Source: Octopus vulgaris
Lineage: Eukaryota
Length of the DNA: 64,000 nt
Direction of reading: 5' to 3'
NCBI GenBank assembly: GCA_951406725.2
Contig: OX597823.1
Location: forward strand, 20,894,001 to 20,958,000
Shown one piece after another: positions 19,438-50,188 of the stretch. The translations under genes were made by a program, and so were the position numbers. The notes beneath the pieces were generated by a model. The model was not told where the DNA came from. It saw only the letters and a list, made by a program, of their open reading frames with translations, and searched no databases. Position 1 is the stretch's first letter, and each line of letters opens with the position of its first letter.

Positions 19438-20288
19438 CATTTCTACTCAAGGAACAAGTTCCGAAATGTTTGGTGAGGGGGCCAGGCGATTAAATCGACC
19501 CCAGTATACAACTGGTACTTAATTTATCGACCCCGAAGGGATGAAGGCAAAGTCGACCTCGGTGGATTGAACTCAGACGTAAAGACGTAAAGACAGACGA
19601 AATACCGCAAAACATTTTGCCCGGCGTGCTAAGGTTTCTGCCAGTTCGCCACCTTTGGCTAATAATATTTGTTTATTTATTGCCCACAGGAGGCTAAACA
19701 TAGCGGGGACAAACATGGACCCTAGTGCGTAACTCGTACTTATTTAATCGACCCCGAAATGATGAAAGGCAAAGTCGACCTCGGCGGAATTTGAACTCAG
19801 AACGTAACAGGACACGAAATACCTATTTCTTTACTACCCACAAGGGGCTAAACACAGAGAGGACAAACAAGGACAGACGAACGGATTGAGTCGATCATAT
19901 CGACCCCAGTGCGTAATTGGTACTTATTTAATCGACCTCGAAAGGATGAAAGGCAAAGTCGACCTTGGCGGAATTTGAACTCAGAACGTAGCGTAGAAGA
20001 AATACCGCTAAGCATTTCGTCCGGCGTGCTAACGTTTCTGCCACCTCGCCGCCTTCTTTGGCTAATAATATTCTCTTCTACCATAGGCACAAGGCTCGAA
20101 ATTTTAGGGTACGATGCTAGTCGATTAGATCGACTCCAGTACGCAAATGGTACTTAATTTATCGACCCCAGAAGGATGAAAGGCAAAGTCGACCTCGGCG
20201 GAATTTGAACTCAGAACGTAAAGGCAAACAAATTATTGCTAAGCATTTCGCCCGCCGTGCTAACATTTCTGCCAGCTCGCCGCCTTCT
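19438..20288 (-). mobile_element. Cluster of four SINE family A units
   Basis: Four cores (aaaggcaaagtcgacctcgg), with a ttggctaataatatt-like 15-mer at both ends and at two internal junctions. Confidence 0.88.
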
Positions 20289-20825
20289 TTGGATAATGGT
20301 ATTAAGAAAAGAATGGACGCCTTACGGTCTTATTATTCAACCCTACAAATTTAAAGAATTGAGTCAAATTTGTAGATTGTATGGTTAGCACCACAAAGCA
20401 CATAGCAAACTAATCTGTGACTCTCTTTCAATTCTCAGCTGACACACTCAGCTGACTTGGGAACATTCTGTTTCCTAGTGCTGATAATACCTTCTGCAAA
20501 GCTACTATGTCTCCCAATATGTATTTACATTTATCATCTTCCTTACAACGCAAGTTCTTTGTAACGAGTCAAAGCAAAACCATTGTTTTTTTATTAATTC
20601 ATTGCTGGGTATTAAATGACAAAAAGCAATCAAAACAGAAACCGAGATTTTTGTTCTCATCAGAAGTAAATTCGTTTCACCCTCACTACTAACGAGCTTG
20701 TGAAAAGCACGAGCTGGCAGGAATTCTATACGTACTGACTCGAAATGCGAGAAATAGCAAAATATTTCCGCGAAATTAGACGGCCAGTTTAATCGAATTA
20801 AGTCACACTTTGCCTCCCCAAAGTC

Positions 20826-21195
20826 CATCCCCTCCTCACCGTGGTGGGGACGCTAGCAAGGGGTAGTGTTAGAGCTATGCTGTCGGGAACTTCGGTTCCT
20901 GGTAGGGCCACCCAAGGCGGATTGGTCTGACACCGAGTGGTATTAGGGCCACAACCCGGCAGACGGGGCTCTGATGAAAATCCTCGGAGTGTCAGTTTTG
21001 GTAACCGGCGGCTCCTCGGTTGTTCTGTCCCTGCATCTGCGGATAATCTGCGGCAAACAGGATGTCTCTACATGCGGGATTGTTGGGAATCGCTTGAGAA
21101 ATCCACGTATTCCCACGAAACTTCTTCCAATAGAAGAAGCCAACTCAACCCGCCCAGGGTGTAAGTCGCCACAAGTACAAGTACAAGTAAGTACA
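20826..21195 (+). mobile_element. Short non-autonomous RTE-derived element (5' UTR-like part plus tandem-repeat tail)
   Basis: ccgtggtgggg..agagctatgctgtcggg..cctggtagggccacccaaggcgg..ggtc resembles RTE (BovB/Expander) 5' UTRs; ends in (acaagt)n. Confidence 0.55.
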
Positions 21196-22262
21196 CTGGG
21201 TGATGAGGTGATTTGTATCAGTAAAGATATGATCTTATTAGTTAAGATATTTCGTTCACAGGATTGTTATATTAAGTTTGATCCGAGACTAAACGACACC
21301 ATAAACAGTATGAACGCCACAATCGTTGAAACTATCAAATATATTTCTGCTCCCTACCGTGTTTGGGTGTATTATTTTCACTTAGCGAATTAGGGTTCCA
21401 AATACAATCGCGTAAATAAATTCATATTAATTTCCTTTAGTGGTCCAACAAGAGTCTACAGTGATTTTTTTTCTGATAGTTCACAATTTTTTGACCTTCT
21501 ATGATTATAGATGATGATGTCTTTGGAAAATATTTCCATGAAGCAACATTCTCTGTTAACATGTAAAACACATTGGAGAGCATTTTGTCGGATATGTCGT
21601 GTCTTAAATATATGACAAGACAGTCTTAATTGGAATGTCTATGAACACGGGGTTAATAAGTATTGACAGACTAATGGTTAAAGAACAGTAACATGACCGC
21701 AGAAAGACGTACAGGTTAATAGAGTCTTAGATACACTCTGTGAGAAAACTAAGTGCCGAATGGAAGACCATTAACCGTAGCCTAGTTTAATGGCAACAAA
21801 AACAACAAAAACAAAAACAACAACAACAGCTAAAAGTGGGTATCAGCTCATATTAAAGAATTAAGACATAAACAATTTTATCTAATTAAAAAATAACCAT
21901 TTCTTTTTTTTTACTCCAAATTCCTCAAATCTTGTGTTTGAATAACTTGTATAAGATATCGTCATTGATCTAAGAATTTGCTTTATTACTTCTGCATTAA
22001 TTCTGCGAATATTGTTGATGATAGCTTTAGTAGAACCGGTTTGATTATTTATAGGTAAAATGTTCTTGTTAATTGCTTCCAATATATATATATATAATCG
22101 CTTACGATTTTATGTATTGTGCCAGCAATATAAACTTGTCAGGTCATGTTGACGCATGAACTGTTTTGCTGTTTTATAATACGTTGACAATGTCGACACG
22201 AATTGAAAGGTTGAATTTAATATTTATAGTACGCAATCAAATTTAATTAAAAGTAAAACTGA

Positions 22263-22335
<73 letters not shown>

Positions 22336-22342
22336 TGTAGTA
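22263..22342 (+). repeat. (TAG)n microsatellite
   Basis: Read directly. Confidence 0.97.
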
Positions 22343-23373
22343 GTGGTCTTGTTTATTAGCCACAAAAACTGGAAGATATTTAAAGAAATGCAAAGAAACT
22401 CTAAACAGAAGACTTACAAAGAGGTGTGGAAAGAGAGAGGAGAAGATATACAAAGAGACAGACAGACAGAAAGAGAGAGAGAGATTGAGGGAGAGCGAGA
22501 GGGGATAACTTATAGAAAGTCAAGGAGAGGGTTTAAGGGTTTTTATATCTTATATAAATGGAACATTTTAAACATATAGAGTACACGTTTACAGATAATA
22601 TATGAAAAGTACGAAAAAGCACTGTTATTAAAATAAGGTATAGTCGGAAGGAAACAAAATGTAATAAAATACAATAAAACCAGAAACAGTGGAGAAAATA
22701 ACAACAAACTCGTCCCCTAGTCCCTAGTCATTTCTCGTCTCTCGTCTCCTGTCATTGTTTGTATTACTGTTATCGTTGATAATAGTGATCATGTCAATGA
22801 TGATGATAATGATAATGATGATATAGTTACTTTTGTTACGGATCGAGTTCTCAGAATCTCAGACTAGGCAGCTTGCGTTTCATGAAAATACAAAATTTTC
22901 CCTTTCCAATTCAAGCATGCATGCAAAGCAGCCATATTGGTAATTTCTGCTTCATGTTCGTAGCATTTTTCTGTTCATACCATTATATTAAATCAGATCA
23001 AAACAATTTTCAAAATATTCGATAAAATGATTTGCTGCAAAATTTAATTAAACTAGCTTTACGTGACACAATCTTGTAGCCAAAGAAAGCAAAACTAAAA
23101 CACTTCCGTTCAAACCGTTTCTAACAACAATAATAATCTGCCATTGTTGCCACTAGAATCTTTTGTTTCATGAAAAACATAGGGCTTACAAAAATTGTGT
23201 GGATGAACAAGTAGTTATGACAAAATGGGGTCGGGTGCTAAAGACATTATAGAGTGTATAAAATATTAGTAGATAATTAAATACATTGATAATTATATAA
23301 AACTGGATATAAAATAAAAACATAAACAATTATATCTAATACAATAATTAAAATTAAGATGCAGCACGAAGCG

Positions 23374-23422
23374 TTGTCAGTGAACAGGTCGCGGTCTCAA
23401 AGCGACGAAAATATTTTGACAA
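23374..23422 (+). ncRNA. Minimal type I hammerhead ribozyme motif, G3-C8 variant
   Basis: Stem I ttgtca/tgacaa; core GTGAACA; stem II gtcgc/gcgac; GAAA; palindromic AATATT helix III; cleavage triplet UUU. Confidence 0.65.
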
Positions 23423-24267
23423 ATTAAATTTAAATGTTGAAGTGAATCTAACGGTTTTGTGTGTTTCTTAAATGGCTTATAAACACCTTCCACGCTGCAA
23501 TAATTAAAAACATATACTATTAATAAAAACAGAAATATCTTTTAGGGTAATCCACCAGGGACCAAGCCCGCTGGTTAGATCGGGCCAGAGTACTTTATGA
23601 TTTTCCCCGCCAGCCACTTGGACTTGTATTGCCCAAACAAGTTGTCGGCATTTCAGGTACATATATTTTGATGTTCTTTATCAGAAATCTATCCTTTCAG
23701 TTTTCTGTACTTTACCATAAATCTATTCAAAACCAACCCTACTCTCATTTCATGTCCCTTTTATATTTTGATTTGGATATTTGTGAAGCCCGTGATTGTG
23801 TTCTTAATAGTGTGAACTCCATGGCATCTGAGCAAGATGGCCTCTGAATAATGGTTTGTTCGGGAGAGACGTGATTATCGCCTGTTCAAATTTCCTTTGG
23901 TTGTTGTTGGTATTTCGTCATTGGATACAACTTTCATCTACTCATCGAATATTTCCGGCTGTTCTCCACTCATGTTTGTTCTCCATATCTTATTCGTTGT
24001 CCAAAGGTGATGAAATGCCACTTCTGGATTTCAACAAAAGAGATAAACCTGGTCTTTGACGTTTGACCCCGGGGAACATGCTAAATTTTCGAAGTCCATA
24101 AAAATATTGCATTCGGCTCTGACGCCCGGTACTGCCAGAAATTCTTCCCTTCCAGGACTTGATCTTGTTGTAACGGCGAGCTTCCATCTCTCTTTCTCTC
24201 TGCATTTATAATCCTTCAGGAGAAAAAGCATTATAACGATTGTACCATAAATGTAGCATCATGTCTT

Positions 24268-24281
24268 TTCTTCTTCTTCTT

Positions 24282-24353
<72 letters not shown>

Positions 24354-24418
24354 TTCTTTGTTCTTCTTCTTCTTCTTCTTCTTCTTCTTCTTCTTCTTCT
24401 TCTTCTATATTATTATTA

Positions 24419-24459
<41 letters not shown>

Positions 24460-24525
24460 GTTATTGTTATATTTTTAAAAGAATTGACGTAACCTTTCAC
24501 AAAGGTACATAGTCTTGACAATAAC

Positions 24526-24580
<55 letters not shown>

Positions 24581-24660
24581 GTTATTATTATTATCATTAT
24601 TATTGTTGTTCTTGTTGTTCTTGTTGTTATCATCGTCATCATCAACATCATTATCTTCTT
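24268..24660 (+). repeat. Compound (CTT)n/(ATT)n microsatellites
   Basis: Read directly. Confidence 0.95.
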
Positions 24661-24670
24661 ACAGTTCTAT

Positions 24671-25620
24671 TTACCTTTCTTGCTGTGGCTTACTGACACC
24701 TAGGGTAGAGAGACTCGCTGTATACGTTGGTAGGACATTAAAATAAAGACACCAGACGGTCCATTTACAAAAACATGTAATAGCTTGTTTCATTGCATTT
24801 GTTTTTGTGCCCATGATGAAGCATAGCTCTGGAATGTACCTCTCGTTTTCGTAAGACATTAGGATTTGAAATTTCACACAGCCCCTTCTAGAACCCAAGT
24901 CACTTATGTCCTCTCGTAGCCTGCATGTTTGCGCTGCATATCTGACGAGCCAGATGCCAACCTCACTAACAGTACCACTGGAAATCACACTGTCATTGTA
25001 CAGGTGCATGTATTGTGGTATGATTTCATGTGAAGATGTGCTGGTCGCCACCCTTGCCTTTGGTCTTAAATACTAGGAAAATATTTCCTTACAGTTGTAT
25101 CGGTCGGTAGATATGACACTGCTCATCCCACCAGTCAAGGCTCCTTTCAGTTGCCTTTTAGCGTATACTATTAAAGAAGCAGCTGGTCTTTGAGGCCATG
25201 ATATGCTAATTTTCATTGCTCGTTAACGAAAAATTTCTTTAGACAAAGAGATACACGCTTTTACGACACCTCATTCCAGATTCCTTTTTCGACTGAGATC
25301 CATATTTAGAAATTTTGTTTGTCTAGCAACGGGTGCAAAACAGTTTCTATAGTTACTAATATTTTCCCCAATATTTATTCGTGTCTCTATGACAATGAAA
25401 AGGTTATTTTTGTAGCTTGGATTTTAACTGCGATTTCTTAAATCAGCGTCGGTGCAGTTTTCTATCGCAAAACTATTATTATTTTTGGCATGTTTTCGGT
25501 GTTATTAACCTTTATCTTTTTCCAATCACGAGTATTTTCACTAGCTAAGGTTTGATAGTTTACGTTTGCGGTACCACACAACCTAGGGAGACATCTTCCT
25601 GATACTCCAAGAAGCTATTA
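24671..25620 (-). pseudogene. Unclassified degenerate retroelement-like coding remnant
   Basis: Non-repetitive, coding-like stretch (ORF 24671-25051) ending at microsatellites; only faint RT-like C-terminal motifs. Confidence 0.25.
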
Positions 25621-25885
25621 TGAATTTTGAGCAAGCGAAACAAGTTGAAGTAAAGTGTTGAAAAGATGGTGCTTTGCTTTTCAGAGAAGCATTGTGAGAA
25701 CTTAAAAAAGGAAAACAGATTTATCACAAGCGAGAAAGAAAAAGGCAGATTATCGAATTTATGAAGTGAAGCAATGTATTTTTATTAAGCACACGAAACC
25801 CGCTCAAGAAAGCACGTTTTGTCAACACTCAAAAAAGGAACAAAACTGCAGCAATGTGGATGATGATGATAATGATGATGCAAGG

Positions 25886-25886
<1 letters not shown>

Positions 25887-25969
<83 letters not shown>

Positions 25970-26017
25970 TATAATAATAATAATAATAATTATAATAATA
26001 ATGATAATAATAATAAT

Positions 26018-26061
<44 letters not shown>

Positions 26062-26113
26062 TAATAATAATAATAATAATAACAACAACAACAACATTAA
26101 TCATAATAATAAT
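25887..26113 (+). repeat. (AAT)n microsatellite
   Basis: Read directly. Confidence 0.97.
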
Positions 26114-26116
26114 AAC

Positions 26117-26835
26117 CCTTTCTTTATTGGCCACAAGAGCCGAACACAAAAACATATTGGGACCGTAAAAAACAAGGGACACATAGGGTTTAAAGCAGAA
26201 AACGTGTAAACAATAAATAGCAAAAATAATTGAAAAAAATATCTAACAACATTTCTCAATAAGTAGAGTTTCACCCATGGCCAAAGAGGGTACCCCACAC
26301 ACGCTGGTTACCCCGAATGCCAAGGGCACGCCAGGTGGGCCCCCTCAAGCCCTCAACTGCTCCGGCTTACAAACGAATATTTAGGTTAAGCGCATTCACG
26401 CGAGTCATTTTCGCGACATTCTCCCAACTTTCAACAAACTTACTCGTAGAGGGTGCAGTACTTCACTTTCTAATCTCACTTTCCTTTTTAAGTGGAACTT
26501 GAAAAAATTTATGAGGGCTCGGCCGAAGAGGAAAGAGTCTTTCTTCAGTCCTTTCAACCTCGTTCACCACACTACCTCTTTCGCTATAGCCACTAGGTGG
26601 AAGAAAACTGCCTTTCCCTCCAGGTCAAAAGAAGGCTGCGGGGCGATCCTCACAATTCACACTGGAATCGGCTGATAAACAGGATCTGCACTACCTGTGA
26701 TGACAGTGGTTCGACAAAACTCCACAAATCAATAATGCACGGACACTGGACATCCTCGACAGGCCCATCTGACAGCACCCCCGTGTCTGTAGAACTTGTC
26801 TCTATCCGTCAGAACTCCCAAGTAGCACTGGGGCC
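26117..26835 (-). mobile_element. 3' end of a Tx1/L1-like LINE
   Basis: Minus strand CPCIIDLWSFVE..AKEVVW*TRLKGL..LINFFKFHLKRKVR; 3' end ccaataaagaaa abutting (AAT)n. Confidence 0.6.
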
Positions 26836-26843
26836 TGAATAAT

Positions 26844-27040
26844 CCAGGCCTGAAATTTGTGGGAAGGGGATAAGTCGATTATATTGACCGCCGTATTTGA
26901 CTAGAACTTCATTTATCGACCCCAAAAGGATGAAAAGCACAATCGAAATCTGTAGGATTAGAACTCAGAATGTAGCCTCAGGCGAAATTCCACTAAGAAT
27001 TTTGTCATGTGAGCTAATAATTCTTCCAGCTAACCGCCTT
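26844..27040 (-). mobile_element. SINE family A, diverged
   Basis: atttatcgaccccaaaaggatgaaa core and head remnant. Confidence 0.7.
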
Positions 27041-39946: not shown

Positions 39947-40047
39947 CAGAGATAACCCAAACATGAAAAACAAAGAGACAACACAACAACGCAGGACGTG
40001 AAACTAATATAGTGTTATTGGACGCTCAGGAAAGGAAAGAAAGAAGG

Positions 40048-40082
40048 ATTTAACGTTTCGAGCGGAGCTCTTCGTCAGAAAC
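40048..40082 (-). ncRNA. Minimal type I hammerhead motif
   Basis: gttt CTGACGA a gagc-tcc-gctc GAAA cg t t aaat. Confidence 0.65.
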
Positions 40083-40173
40083 ATAGGAAAAGGAAAGATC
40101 CAAGGAAGAGAAAATGGAGGAAAAGAATCGCCAATGATACATACGCGGTCACATATTGATATTTATATATCTG

Positions 40174-40240
<67 letters not shown>

Positions 40241-40576
40241 ATATATATATAATGATAGATATTGTAATTTAGAGTATCTAAGTATCGAAGAACTACCTCC
40301 ACGCTGGAAATAGCAGTCAAAACTGGGCGCTAAAACCACATTAAATGTTCATACAGCAATAGGAGAGAATTACTGTATAAACATTTAATGTGGTGTTAGA
40401 GTCAAGTTTTGGCTGCTATTTCCAGCGTGGTGGTATCTCTTAGATACCCTAAATTATAATTTTGATAATAATTATTGCTTTTGAATGTTTTTAATCCCAT
40501 GCTGGCCATTTGATAAGATCGATAATTAAAGTAACGATCTTATCCTTATTTATATAATGATAGATAGATAGGTAGG

Positions 40577-40670
<94 letters not shown>

Positions 40671-40761
40671 CAGTTATATAAATATCAATATGTGACCGCG
40701 TATGTATCATTGGCGATTCTTTTCCTCCATTTTCTCTTCCTTCGATCTTTCCTTTTCCTAT

Positions 40762-40796
40762 GTTTCTGACGAAGAGCTCCGCTCGAAACGTTAAAT
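40762..40796 (+). ncRNA. Minimal type I hammerhead motif
   Basis: gttt CTGACGA a gagc-tcc-gctc GAAA cg t t aaat; same motif as 40048-40082. Confidence 0.65.
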
Positions 40797-40901
40797 CTTT
40801 CTTTCTTTCCTTTCCTGAGCGTCCAATAACACTATACTTGTTCCACGTCCTCGCATTGTTGTGTTTTCTCTTTGTGTTTTCATATATATATGTGTTTTCA
40901 C

Positions 40902-42782: not shown

Positions 42783-43354
42783 TATATATATATGCGGGTA
42801 GTGGATATGCGTGTGTGTGTACGAGATATTCAGAACAGAAAATGTTTTGAACAATAAAGAAAGATTAGTAAGAGATACTAATTTAAAATAATTCCCTGGG
42901 GTTATATTTCGATGTCTGCTTGGTGTAAATAATTAACGCTAGGAAATCAAAATCATTTGCACCAAGAATTCCAGTTTGTATTGACTGTAAATTCTAATCA
43001 CACACTCACACGGACGCACCCTTACATATATTCGTAAATACACGTATGTACATACACATATACATATATTTCGTTTTGTATTTGTATATGACGTCAAAGA
43101 GCAGACCTCTTTCCTCCATACTCTAACAACATGACAAATACCAACATGGAGACACACTGTGTCAACTTGACATCAGCATTTTATCCAAGCACCCGAAAGG
43201 CCCAACACTTAGACAAATACAGGAGTACGTCATCATCAATGAAACATCCCTTTTACGAAATAGGAATTATGCGCAGGTGGTAGATATACCCCAATACCCA
43301 CACTTCATATATACGCATGTAGAGTTGCCAACAGACTATGTAGAAGTATATATA

Positions 43355-49602: not shown

Positions 49603-50188
49603 AAGGCGGTGAGCTGGCAGAGTCGTTAGCATGCCGGGCGAAATGCTTAGCAGTATTTCGTCTGCCGCTACGTTCTGAGTTCAAATTTCGCCGAGGTCGA
49701 CTTGGCCTTTCATCATTTCGGGGTCGATTGAATAAGTACCAGTTACGCACTGGAGTCGATATAATCGATTTAATCCATTTGTCTGTCCTTGTTTGTCCTC
49801 CCTGTGTTTAGCTCCTTGTGGACAGTAAAGAAATAGGTATTTTGTCTGTCTTTACGTTCTGAGTTCAAATTCCGCCGAGGTCGACTTTGCCTTTCATCGT
49901 TTCGGGGTCGATAAACTAAGTACCAGTTACGTACTGGGGTCGATGTAATCGACTTAATCCGTTTGTTTGTCCTTGTTTGGCCTCTCTGAGTTTAGGCCCT
50001 TGTGGGCAGTAAAGAAATAGGTATTTCGTCTGTTTTTACGTTCTGAGTTCTAATTCCGGCGAGGTCGACTTCGCTTTTCATCCTTTCGGGTGTCAATAAA
50101 TTAAGTACCAGCTGCGCACTGGGCTTGGTCTAATTGACTGGCCCCCTCCTCAAAAATTTCGGGCCTTGTGCCTAAAGTAGAAAAGATT
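49603..50188 (+). mobile_element. SINE family A, three head-to-tail units
   Basis: One head followed by three cores; junctions aaagaaata|ggtattt. Confidence 0.88.

What the first reader, a model, noticed from the sequence alone, without database searches (positions are those of the whole stretch)
23374..23422. Hammerhead motif with compensatory G3-C8 core swap
Seen: ttgtca-GTGAACA-g-gtcgc-ggtctcaaa-gcgac-GAAA-atat-t-t-tgacaa, with a perfect 6-bp stem I, 5-bp stem II and palindromic AATATT helix III. Known: C3 and G8 form a tertiary Watson-Crick pair, and palindromic helix III supports dimeric cleavage in minimal HHRs. Both partners being swapped suggests selection on structure, and a CUGANGA search would miss it. 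The UUU cleavage triplet is atypical.
Basis: partly seen in the sequence, partly recalled or inferred. Interest (0 to 1): 0.72.

Follow-up and report, generated by a model that had tools for sequence, protein, structure and literature searches.

The report
Swapped-core hammerhead in Penelope retrotransposon
This 49-base motif is one of about 6,000 copies of a hammerhead-shaped RNA in the end-repeat of a Penelope-type jumping gene, in which two paired core letters are swapped (G-C instead of C-G) relative to sister elements; it is predicted, not shown, to cut itself slowly, and the jumping gene appears able to spread without that cut.

Summary
The motif is there exactly as described and is not chance (1 comparable hit in 300 window shuffles). 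It sits in a 145-nt truncated end-repeat (pLTR, 23357-23501) of a Penelope-like retrotransposon; longer copies lead into an RT + GIY-YIG ORF. G3-C8 is the consensus of two subfamilies (6,013 matches). Sister families carry C3-G8 at the same place (5,433 matches), and stems I, II and the palindrome covary, so the swap is a real natural double change. Limits: UUU is not atypical (U17 in 24 of 56 published PLE hammerheads). Lineages with G3.G8 or A9C cores also amplified, and no copy among 74 is truncated at the cleavage site, while 35 start about 60 nt upstream of it. So selection on catalysis looks weak, matching published data that PLE hammerheads are slow, protein-assisted and dispensable for insertion in vitro. 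G3-C8 is known as a laboratory rescue mutant; I did not find it reported in nature, but a key survey was unavailable. This scan has already noted the same family 17 times on other DNA. New variant of a known kind; cleavage untested.

The parts
23357..23501 (+). Truncated pLTR copy of a Penelope-like retrotransposon (subfamily A), ending at the shorter of the family's two 3' ends
   Evidence: Homology to 29 other loci starts at about 23357 and ends at 23501; long copies lead to an RT + GIY-YIG ORF; two 3' end classes
23346..23353 (+). Left copy of an 8-bp target duplication (12 bp with 4 bases shared with the element end)
   Evidence: Sequence
23502..23509 (+). Right copy of the 8-bp target duplication
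   Evidence: Sequence
23355..23362 (+). Preferred 5' end of genomic copies; inferred RNA start or strong RT stop (initiator-like; also an acceptor-like AG after a pyrimidine tract in long copies)
   Evidence: 35 of 74 copies start here; upstream sequence in long copies
23374..23379 (+). Hammerhead stem I, 5' strand
   Evidence: covaries across families
23380..23387 (+). Core strand G3-A9 with G3 (23380) and C8 (23385) swapped, plus the extra nucleotide between 9 and 10.1 typical of PLE hammerheads
   Evidence: sister families C3-G8; PMC4209133
23388..23406 (+). Stem II (5 bp) and loop II; the loop differs between subfamilies A and B while the stem is kept
23407..23416 (+). G12-A15.1, 6-nt palindrome for an intermolecular helix III, and U17; predicted cleavage between 23416 and 23417
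   Evidence: cleavage site inferred from hammerhead numbering, not observed
23417..23422 (+). Hammerhead stem I, 3' strand
23472..23501 (+). Start codon and first 10 codons of the element's ORF (inferred)
   Evidence: homologous in position and residues to the start of the intact 1312-aa ORF of sister family C; alignment judged by eye

Best explanation
It is the minimal type I hammerhead of a Penelope-like retrotransposon's end-repeat, carrying a natural C3G/G8C double change, and it likely still cuts itself slowly, only as a dimer or with help from the element's own protein, as an accessory step that insertion probably does not need. Shown: the host element, the position 55 nt upstream of the ORF start, the family-wide G3-C8 and the C3-G8 state of sister families. 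Inferred: a transcript starts near 23357; two motifs (tandem repeats on one RNA, or two RNAs) pair through the 6-nt palindrome to build helix III; G3-C8 takes the place of the tertiary C3-G8 pair and the 2'-OH at position 8 is retained; cleavage after U17 (23416) would trim the leader or free a unit-length RNA. Most genomic copies, this one included, were copied from uncut RNA by reverse transcription started at one of two sites inside the ORF start and run to the RNA's 5' end. U17, already present in several sister families, likely made G3 tolerable, because C17 would lock G3 into stem I.
For: Host: RT motif plus CX3CxxC linker plus GIY-YIG (atlas neighbours carry RVT_1 and GIY-YIG); inverted 5'-truncated partners, tandem units and two 3' ends. 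Swap: 6,013 G3-C8 and 5,433 C3-G8 matches with the same stem II frame (controls 0 and 5). In families A and B only positions 3 and 8 differ from the canonical core, and they remain complementary (my rough odds for two random core changes doing this: about 1 in 200). It is kept in A and B, whose proteins are 81-86% identical and whose loop II differs. Covariation in 12 representatives: 7 of 15 pairs change on both sides, 83% of cells paired against 27-43% for slid controls. Literature: the double mutant partly rescues a PLE hammerhead, which is protein-assisted and dispensable for insertion in vitro (PMC11167929); the G:C swap is the only rescuing double mutant of this turn (PMC9901934); minimal PLE hammerheads cut weakly and only as multimers (PMC4209133). 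Predicted 3-17 pairing: 0.67 with U17, 0.98 with C17; G3-C8 is reported more active with G17 than C17 (PMC3884650, data not shown there).
Against: No cleavage data and no raw RNA reads. 0 of 74 copies are truncated at the cleavage site (the one that maps there is an internal deletion) and 35 start about 60 nt upstream. Predicted-inactive cores amplified: G3.G8 228 matches, present in 8 of the held C16 loci with different ends, one of them with two direct repeats around an ORF; A9C dominates the young family C with intact ORFs; an old family shows 18 U3.G8, 9 C3.A8, 7 C3-G8 and 4 U3-A8 of 45. The double-hammerhead fold (-23.6 kcal/mol) is less stable than two monomers (-25.8), and G3 is predicted to be partly trapped by U17. 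The 12 rows are related, hand-picked single copies, and four were selected for having A/U at 3 and 8, so that count overstates 3-8 covariation.
Confidence: 0.62

Rival explanations
1. Vestigial or non-catalytic hammerhead: the fold is inherited and perhaps kept as a leader structure or protein-binding site, catalysis no longer matters, and G3-C8 was fixed by drift in a successful master element.
For: Amplified G3.G8, A9C, U3.G8 and C3.A8 lineages; no cleavage footprint in 74 copies; hammerhead mutants do not affect insertion in vitro and no RNA-seq ends were found at the site in a lizard PLE (PMC11167929); Naiad PLEs thrive without hammerheads (PMC8557442).
Against: The two changed positions are exactly the tertiary pair, which has no role in the secondary structure; the other core letters are invariant or nearly so across 12 representatives while loops and stems turn over; G3-C8 persisted through the A/B split.
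Confidence: 0.29
2. Efficient ribozyme whose cleavage (and re-ligation into circles) is an obligatory step of transposition, so that the swap is under strong selection.
For: Model proposed in PMC4209133; a circle would leave no truncation footprint at the cleavage site; tandem units that could supply two motifs exist.
Against: Copies stop at a fixed point upstream of the motif, as from a linear uncut RNA; mismatch-core lineages inserted independently; in vitro insertion does not need cleavage.
Confidence: 0.08
3. Chance look-alike in an AT-rich repeat.
For: Rfam finds nothing; the fold z-score alone is modest.
Against: 1 hit in 300 shuffles; canonical hammerheads occupy the same position in sister elements.
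Confidence: 0.01

Closest known systems
Minimal type I hammerheads in pLTRs of metazoan Penelope-like elements (Cervera and de la Pena 2014, PMC4209133)
   Same: Type I, in the pLTR, extra nucleotide between 9 and 10.1, G10.1-C11.1, palindromic helix III, mostly single truncated copies with inverted partners, U17 common
   Different: None of their 56 representatives has G3 (53 C3-G8, two U3-A8, one U3.G8, counted by eye); here G3-C8 is the consensus of thousands of copies, and the palindrome is 6 nt
Hammerhead of Poseidon from Anolis carolinensis, PAc (Frangieh et al. 2024, PMC11167929)
   Same: Hammerhead near the ORF start; two 3' end classes inside the ORF start (tail); AT-rich targets; the engineered C3G/G8C double mutant partly restores cleavage
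   Different: Wild type is C3-G8; the PAc ORF starts within the motif, here 55 nt after the cleavage site; different PLE clade; activity was measured there, not here
Natural U3-A8 hammerheads (Perreault et al. 2011, PMC3088659; Schistosoma PLE families in PMC4209133)
   Same: Natural compensatory change of the same tertiary pair
   Different: U3-A8 is two transitions with a U.G wobble path and keeps a purine at 8; G3-C8 needs two transversions and passes through a G.G or C.C mismatch
Neptune/Nematis clades of Penelope-like elements (features from Craig et al. 2021, PMC8557442)
   Same: RT followed by a cysteine linker and C-terminal GIY-YIG; (TA)n targets; partial tandems, inverted pLTRs, tail
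   Different: Clade not fixed by a tree; Neptune and Nematis were not told apart

Membership tests
Hammerhead ribozyme (type I) | Three-helix junction with stems I and II flanking the core | tested here: met
   covariation between families
Hammerhead ribozyme (type I) | Literal core consensus C3 U4 G5 A6 N7 G8 A9 / G12 A13 A14 A15.1 / U16.1 H17 | tested here: not met
   G3 and C8; all other positions match; Rfam no hit
Hammerhead ribozyme (type I) | Watson-Crick complementarity of positions 3 and 8 | tested here: met
   G3-C8 in 6,013 matches against 228 G3.G8 and 208 non-G3 with C8
Hammerhead ribozyme (type I) | Site-specific self-cleavage after N17 | not testable with these tools
   No raw RNA reads; no footprint in copy ends, which is not a test of activity
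PLE minimal hammerhead | Located in the pLTR of a PLE, sense strand | tested here: met
PLE minimal hammerhead | Extra nucleotide between 9 and 10.1, G10.1-C11.1, palindromic unstable helix III | tested here: met
   features from PMC4209133
PLE minimal hammerhead | Cleaves as a dimer | not testable with these tools
   Predicted double hammerhead -23.6 against -25.8 kcal/mol for two monomers; tandem units exist
Penelope-like element | Single ORF with RT and C-terminal GIY-YIG endonuclease | tested here: met
   PF01541 E 1e-4 and 2e-5, above cutoff; RT by the YVDD motif and atlas neighbours; Pfam RVT_1 itself gave no hit
Penelope-like element | pLTRs in partial tandems, inverted 5'-truncated copies, optional 3' tail | tested here: met
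   33 short and 41 long 3' ends of 74
Neptune clade | Cysteine linker CX2-5CxxC between RT and EN, and phylogenetic placement | tested here: inconclusive
   CX3CxxC present; no tree with reference elements was built
Non-LTR retrozyme (short tandem, non-coding) | 170-400 nt head-to-tail tandem units without ORF | tested here: not met
   Copies are dispersed truncations of an ORF-bearing element

The most novel reading that the evidence does not exclude
This genome records a ribozyme crossing a fitness valley in nature: a PLE clade whose hammerhead is only weakly selected samples mismatched cores (G3.G8, U3.G8, C3.A8, A9C) as amplifying lineages, and a pre-existing U17 let a two-transversion G3-C8 core fix and found two subfamilies as an active, protein-assisted ribozyme. 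It would be the first natural G3-C8 hammerhead with a documented epistatic path, and would mean that genome surveys built on CUGANGA miss whole PLE families.
Probability: 0.25. Interest if true: 0.62.

Novelty: new variant of a known kind. Interest (0 to 1): 0.38.

Why it matters
The role of hammerheads in Penelope-like elements is an open question. One genome here offers matched natural variants of the same motif in related elements (C3-G8, G3-C8, G3.G8, A9C), several with intact ORFs, so activity can be compared directly with proliferative success. It also gives an evolutionary counterpart to a classic laboratory rescue mutant and shows that descriptor-based surveys undercount these motifs. 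The surprise is moderate: the swap is known to work in vitro, a natural U3-A8 swap is published, and this scan has reported the family repeatedly.

Tried and rejected
Rfam search: no hammerhead hit. RNA evidence: no RNA holder listed on record, contigs only, so expression, splicing and cleavage ends stay open; contigs of four runs under four organism codes hold the repeat with no listed variant at positions 3 or 8 (two rows not shown; canonical relatives would fall below the 80% cut). The reading of the upstream tract as an intron (donor-like GT, branch-like motif, pyrimidine tract and AG in subfamily A) could not be tested; subfamily B keeps the acceptor-like end but not that donor, and no common first exon is seen in truncated copies, so a transcription start is as likely. 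G3.G8 as the ancestral intermediate: not supported; those copies fall inside subfamily A with B as sister, but the tree is poorly resolved. Retrozyme reading rejected (ORF-bearing element). PDB search with the ORF gave nothing. No intact ORF was obtained for families D, E and F, so their relation rests on pLTR homology, the ORF-start peptide and endonuclease fragments. No paper found linking Penelope enrichment to an octopus Z chromosome. Luense et al. 2017, Przybilski and Hammann 2007 and Martick and Scott 2006 were not held.

Full report
Observation. With standard numbering G3 is 23380, C8 23385, an extra G lies at 23387, stem II is 23388-92 with 23402-06, A15.1-U16.1 is the palindrome 23410-15 and U17 is 23416. 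Stems I and II form in the predicted fold; helix III does not form in a monomer. A descriptor allowing any Watson-Crick 3-8 pair finds this single site in the window at stem lengths 6 and 5, and 1 hit in 300 dinucleotide shuffles. Rfam reports no hammerhead in 20000-27000.

Host element. The window is eukaryotic repeat-rich DNA from a 2.8-Gb assembly; from recalled repeat content and earlier notes of this scan it is likely an octopus, which I did not test. The motif lies in a dispersed repeat: 1,330 candidates for 23330-23500, 425 exact copies of the 49-mer. The window copy spans 23357-23501 between 8-bp target duplications. Many copies have an inverted truncated partner at their 5' end. Walking upstream through longer copies reached an ORF with an RT motif, a CX3CxxC linker and a GIY-YIG domain (L061; PF01541 E 1e-4). 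A protein search gave sister families: B, 81-86% identical, with a 1025-aa open frame (L065), and C, about 48-55% identical, with 1312-aa open frames in partial tandems (L076, L077, L081). Atlas neighbours of the B protein carry RVT_1 and GIY-YIG; Pfam RVT_1 itself and the PDB gave no hit. The ATG at 23472 opens a peptide that matches, by eye, the start of the family C ORF. This is the architecture of a Penelope-like element with a Neptune/Nematis-type linker (PMC8557442, passages); the clade was not fixed by a tree.

The swap. With positions 3, 7 and 8 left free, 2,349 copies match, and 92 of the first 100 listed are G3-C8; the rest of the variation looks like CpG decay (counted by eye). A pattern spanning subfamilies gives 6,013 G3-C8 matches, 228 G3.G8 and 208 with C8 but not G3. 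Subfamily B has the same core and stems with a different loop II. At the same position, families C, D and E have C3 and G8: 5,433 matches, control 5, including fully canonical cores. In 12 representatives 7 of 15 pairs change on both sides and 83% of cells pair, against 27-43% when partners are slid. These rows are related and hand-picked, and four came from a search that required A or U at 3 and 8, so the figure shows homology and stem covariation, not an independent count of swaps. Since all outgroup hammerheads are C3-G8, G3-C8 is the derived state (inference). Contigs from four public runs under four organism codes hold the repeat with no listed variant at 3 or 8.

Literature. PMC4209133 (main text parts 1-2 of 4; supplement parts 1-2 of 3) defines PLE minimal hammerheads with the extra nucleotide, G10.1-C11.1 and a palindromic helix III, reports weak multimer-only cleavage and a natural U3-A8 family. 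Its 56 representatives include no G3; 24 have U17 and the oyster one has UUU (counted by eye from machine-read text), so UUU is not atypical. PMC11167929 (parts 1-2 of 4) shows for a lizard PLE that C3G and G8C each abolish cleavage, the double mutant partly restores it, cleavage needs the ORF protein, insertion in vitro does not need cleavage, and two internal RT starts make the tail. PMC9901934 (passages) finds the G:C swap to be the only rescuing double mutant of the turn. PMC3088659 (passages) reports natural U3-A8. PMC3884650 (passages) describes the 3-17 trap. PMC8495972, PMC7229834 and PMC6765202 were seen as passages. Searches for a natural G3-C8 and for hammerheads in octopus found none, but Luense et al. 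2017, the largest survey of PLE hammerhead variants known to me, and two primary mutagenesis papers were not held, and figure images and part 3 of the supplement were not seen.

Copy ends. I anchored on a 29-mer downstream of the motif (3,879 matches) and mapped 74 copies from the first 76 listed, all on C1 (one listed copy that runs upstream, L031, was not in this set and one was collapsed or missed; inverted pairs share junctions, so copies are not fully independent). 5' ends: 35 at window 23355-62, 12 between there and G3, 12 in the core or stem II, 10 beyond the motif, 4 further upstream, and 1 at the cleavage site, which is an internal deletion. 3' ends: 33 near 23501-11 and 41 about 58 nt further. 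This fits reverse transcription from two internal sites on an uncut linear RNA whose 5' end, or a strong stop, lies about 60 nt upstream of the cleavage site. Whether that point is a transcription start or a splice acceptor is open.

Evidence that catalysis is weakly selected. G3.G8 copies outnumber the mirror-image C3.C8 copies 50 to 18 over the same 1.37 Gb (A/B-type rows, counted by eye), and 128 of 228 lie in the last 30% or so of the assembly. Among held long copies G3.G8 occurs in 8 loci on C16 (L050-L055, L057, L063) with different 3' ends and flanks, and in none of the C1-C15 long copies whose core could be read. They nest inside subfamily A in a poorly resolved tree, which suggests a derived lineage. 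Young family C, with intact ORFs, has C at position 9 in most listed copies. An old family shows 18 U3.G8, 9 C3.A8, 7 C3-G8, 4 U3-A8 and 7 others of 45.

Mechanism. Most likely (0.62) a slow ribozyme that needs a partner motif or the element's protein, accessory to transposition. The pairing of exactly positions 3 and 8 argues for some selection on the active fold; the mismatch lineages and the uncut templates argue that it is weak. In silico, G3 pairs with U17 in 67% of the monomer ensemble and would pair with C17 in 98%, so U17, shared with families E, F and young C, may have been permissive; this is inference. Rivals: vestigial fold (0.29), obligatory cleavage (0.08), chance (0.01).

Verdict. 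A real feature and a new variant of a known kind: a PLE minimal hammerhead with a natural G3-C8 core. The scan holds 17 earlier notes with the same words in at least 3 genomes; they are unchecked AI notes and were not used as support. What this pass adds is the copy-end map, the amplified G3.G8 and A9C lineages and the C16 enrichment. Interest 0.38.

Noticed in passing
window 40762-40796 (+) and 40048-40082 (-): A second, fully canonical minimal hammerhead (C3-G8, 4-bp stem II, 4-nt palindrome, U17) in both arms of a 259-nt inverted repeat (39993-40251 / 40593-40851); looks like the pLTR of another PLE family.
   Followed up: partly
G000 contig C16 (58.8 Mb of 2,800 Mb): 23 of 44 long copies of subfamily A lie on C16 (binomial p about 3e-27 against length share), and all G3.G8 long copies held are there. 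Reason unknown; a sex chromosome or local re-insertion are guesses. No paper found.
   Followed up: partly
L076:6383-6434, L077, L078, L081: Family C, young and abundant with intact 1312-aa ORFs in tandem, has C in place of the invariant A9; older family C copies keep A9. None of the 56 published representatives has this change.
   Followed up: partly
L063:3096-7116: Two direct pLTR copies, both G3.G8, around an RT-EN region: a tandem unit with a predicted-dead core.
   Followed up: no
L039, L042, L059, L065 (upstream of the hammerhead): Long copies carry a microsatellite-rich tract ending in a branch-like motif, pyrimidine run and AG exactly at the preferred 5' end of short copies; intron or promoter is unresolved.
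   Followed up: partly
L132-L145: Old related family with a 5-nt loop II in which U3.G8 and C3.A8 cores appear as separate sub-lineages.
   Followed up: partly
window 43103-43276: Decayed fragment resembling the end of a PLE GIY-YIG domain (E 1e-5 to family C).
   Followed up: no
window 49653-50123 and 19713-19993: 2.6 tandem copies of a 184-nt repeat with inverted relatives elsewhere in the window; resembles a cephalopod SINE (recalled, not tested).
   Followed up: no
L076:1942-5877: The family C ORF has a roughly 280-aa Asn/Ser/Gly-rich insert ahead of the RT that family B lacks.
   Followed up: no
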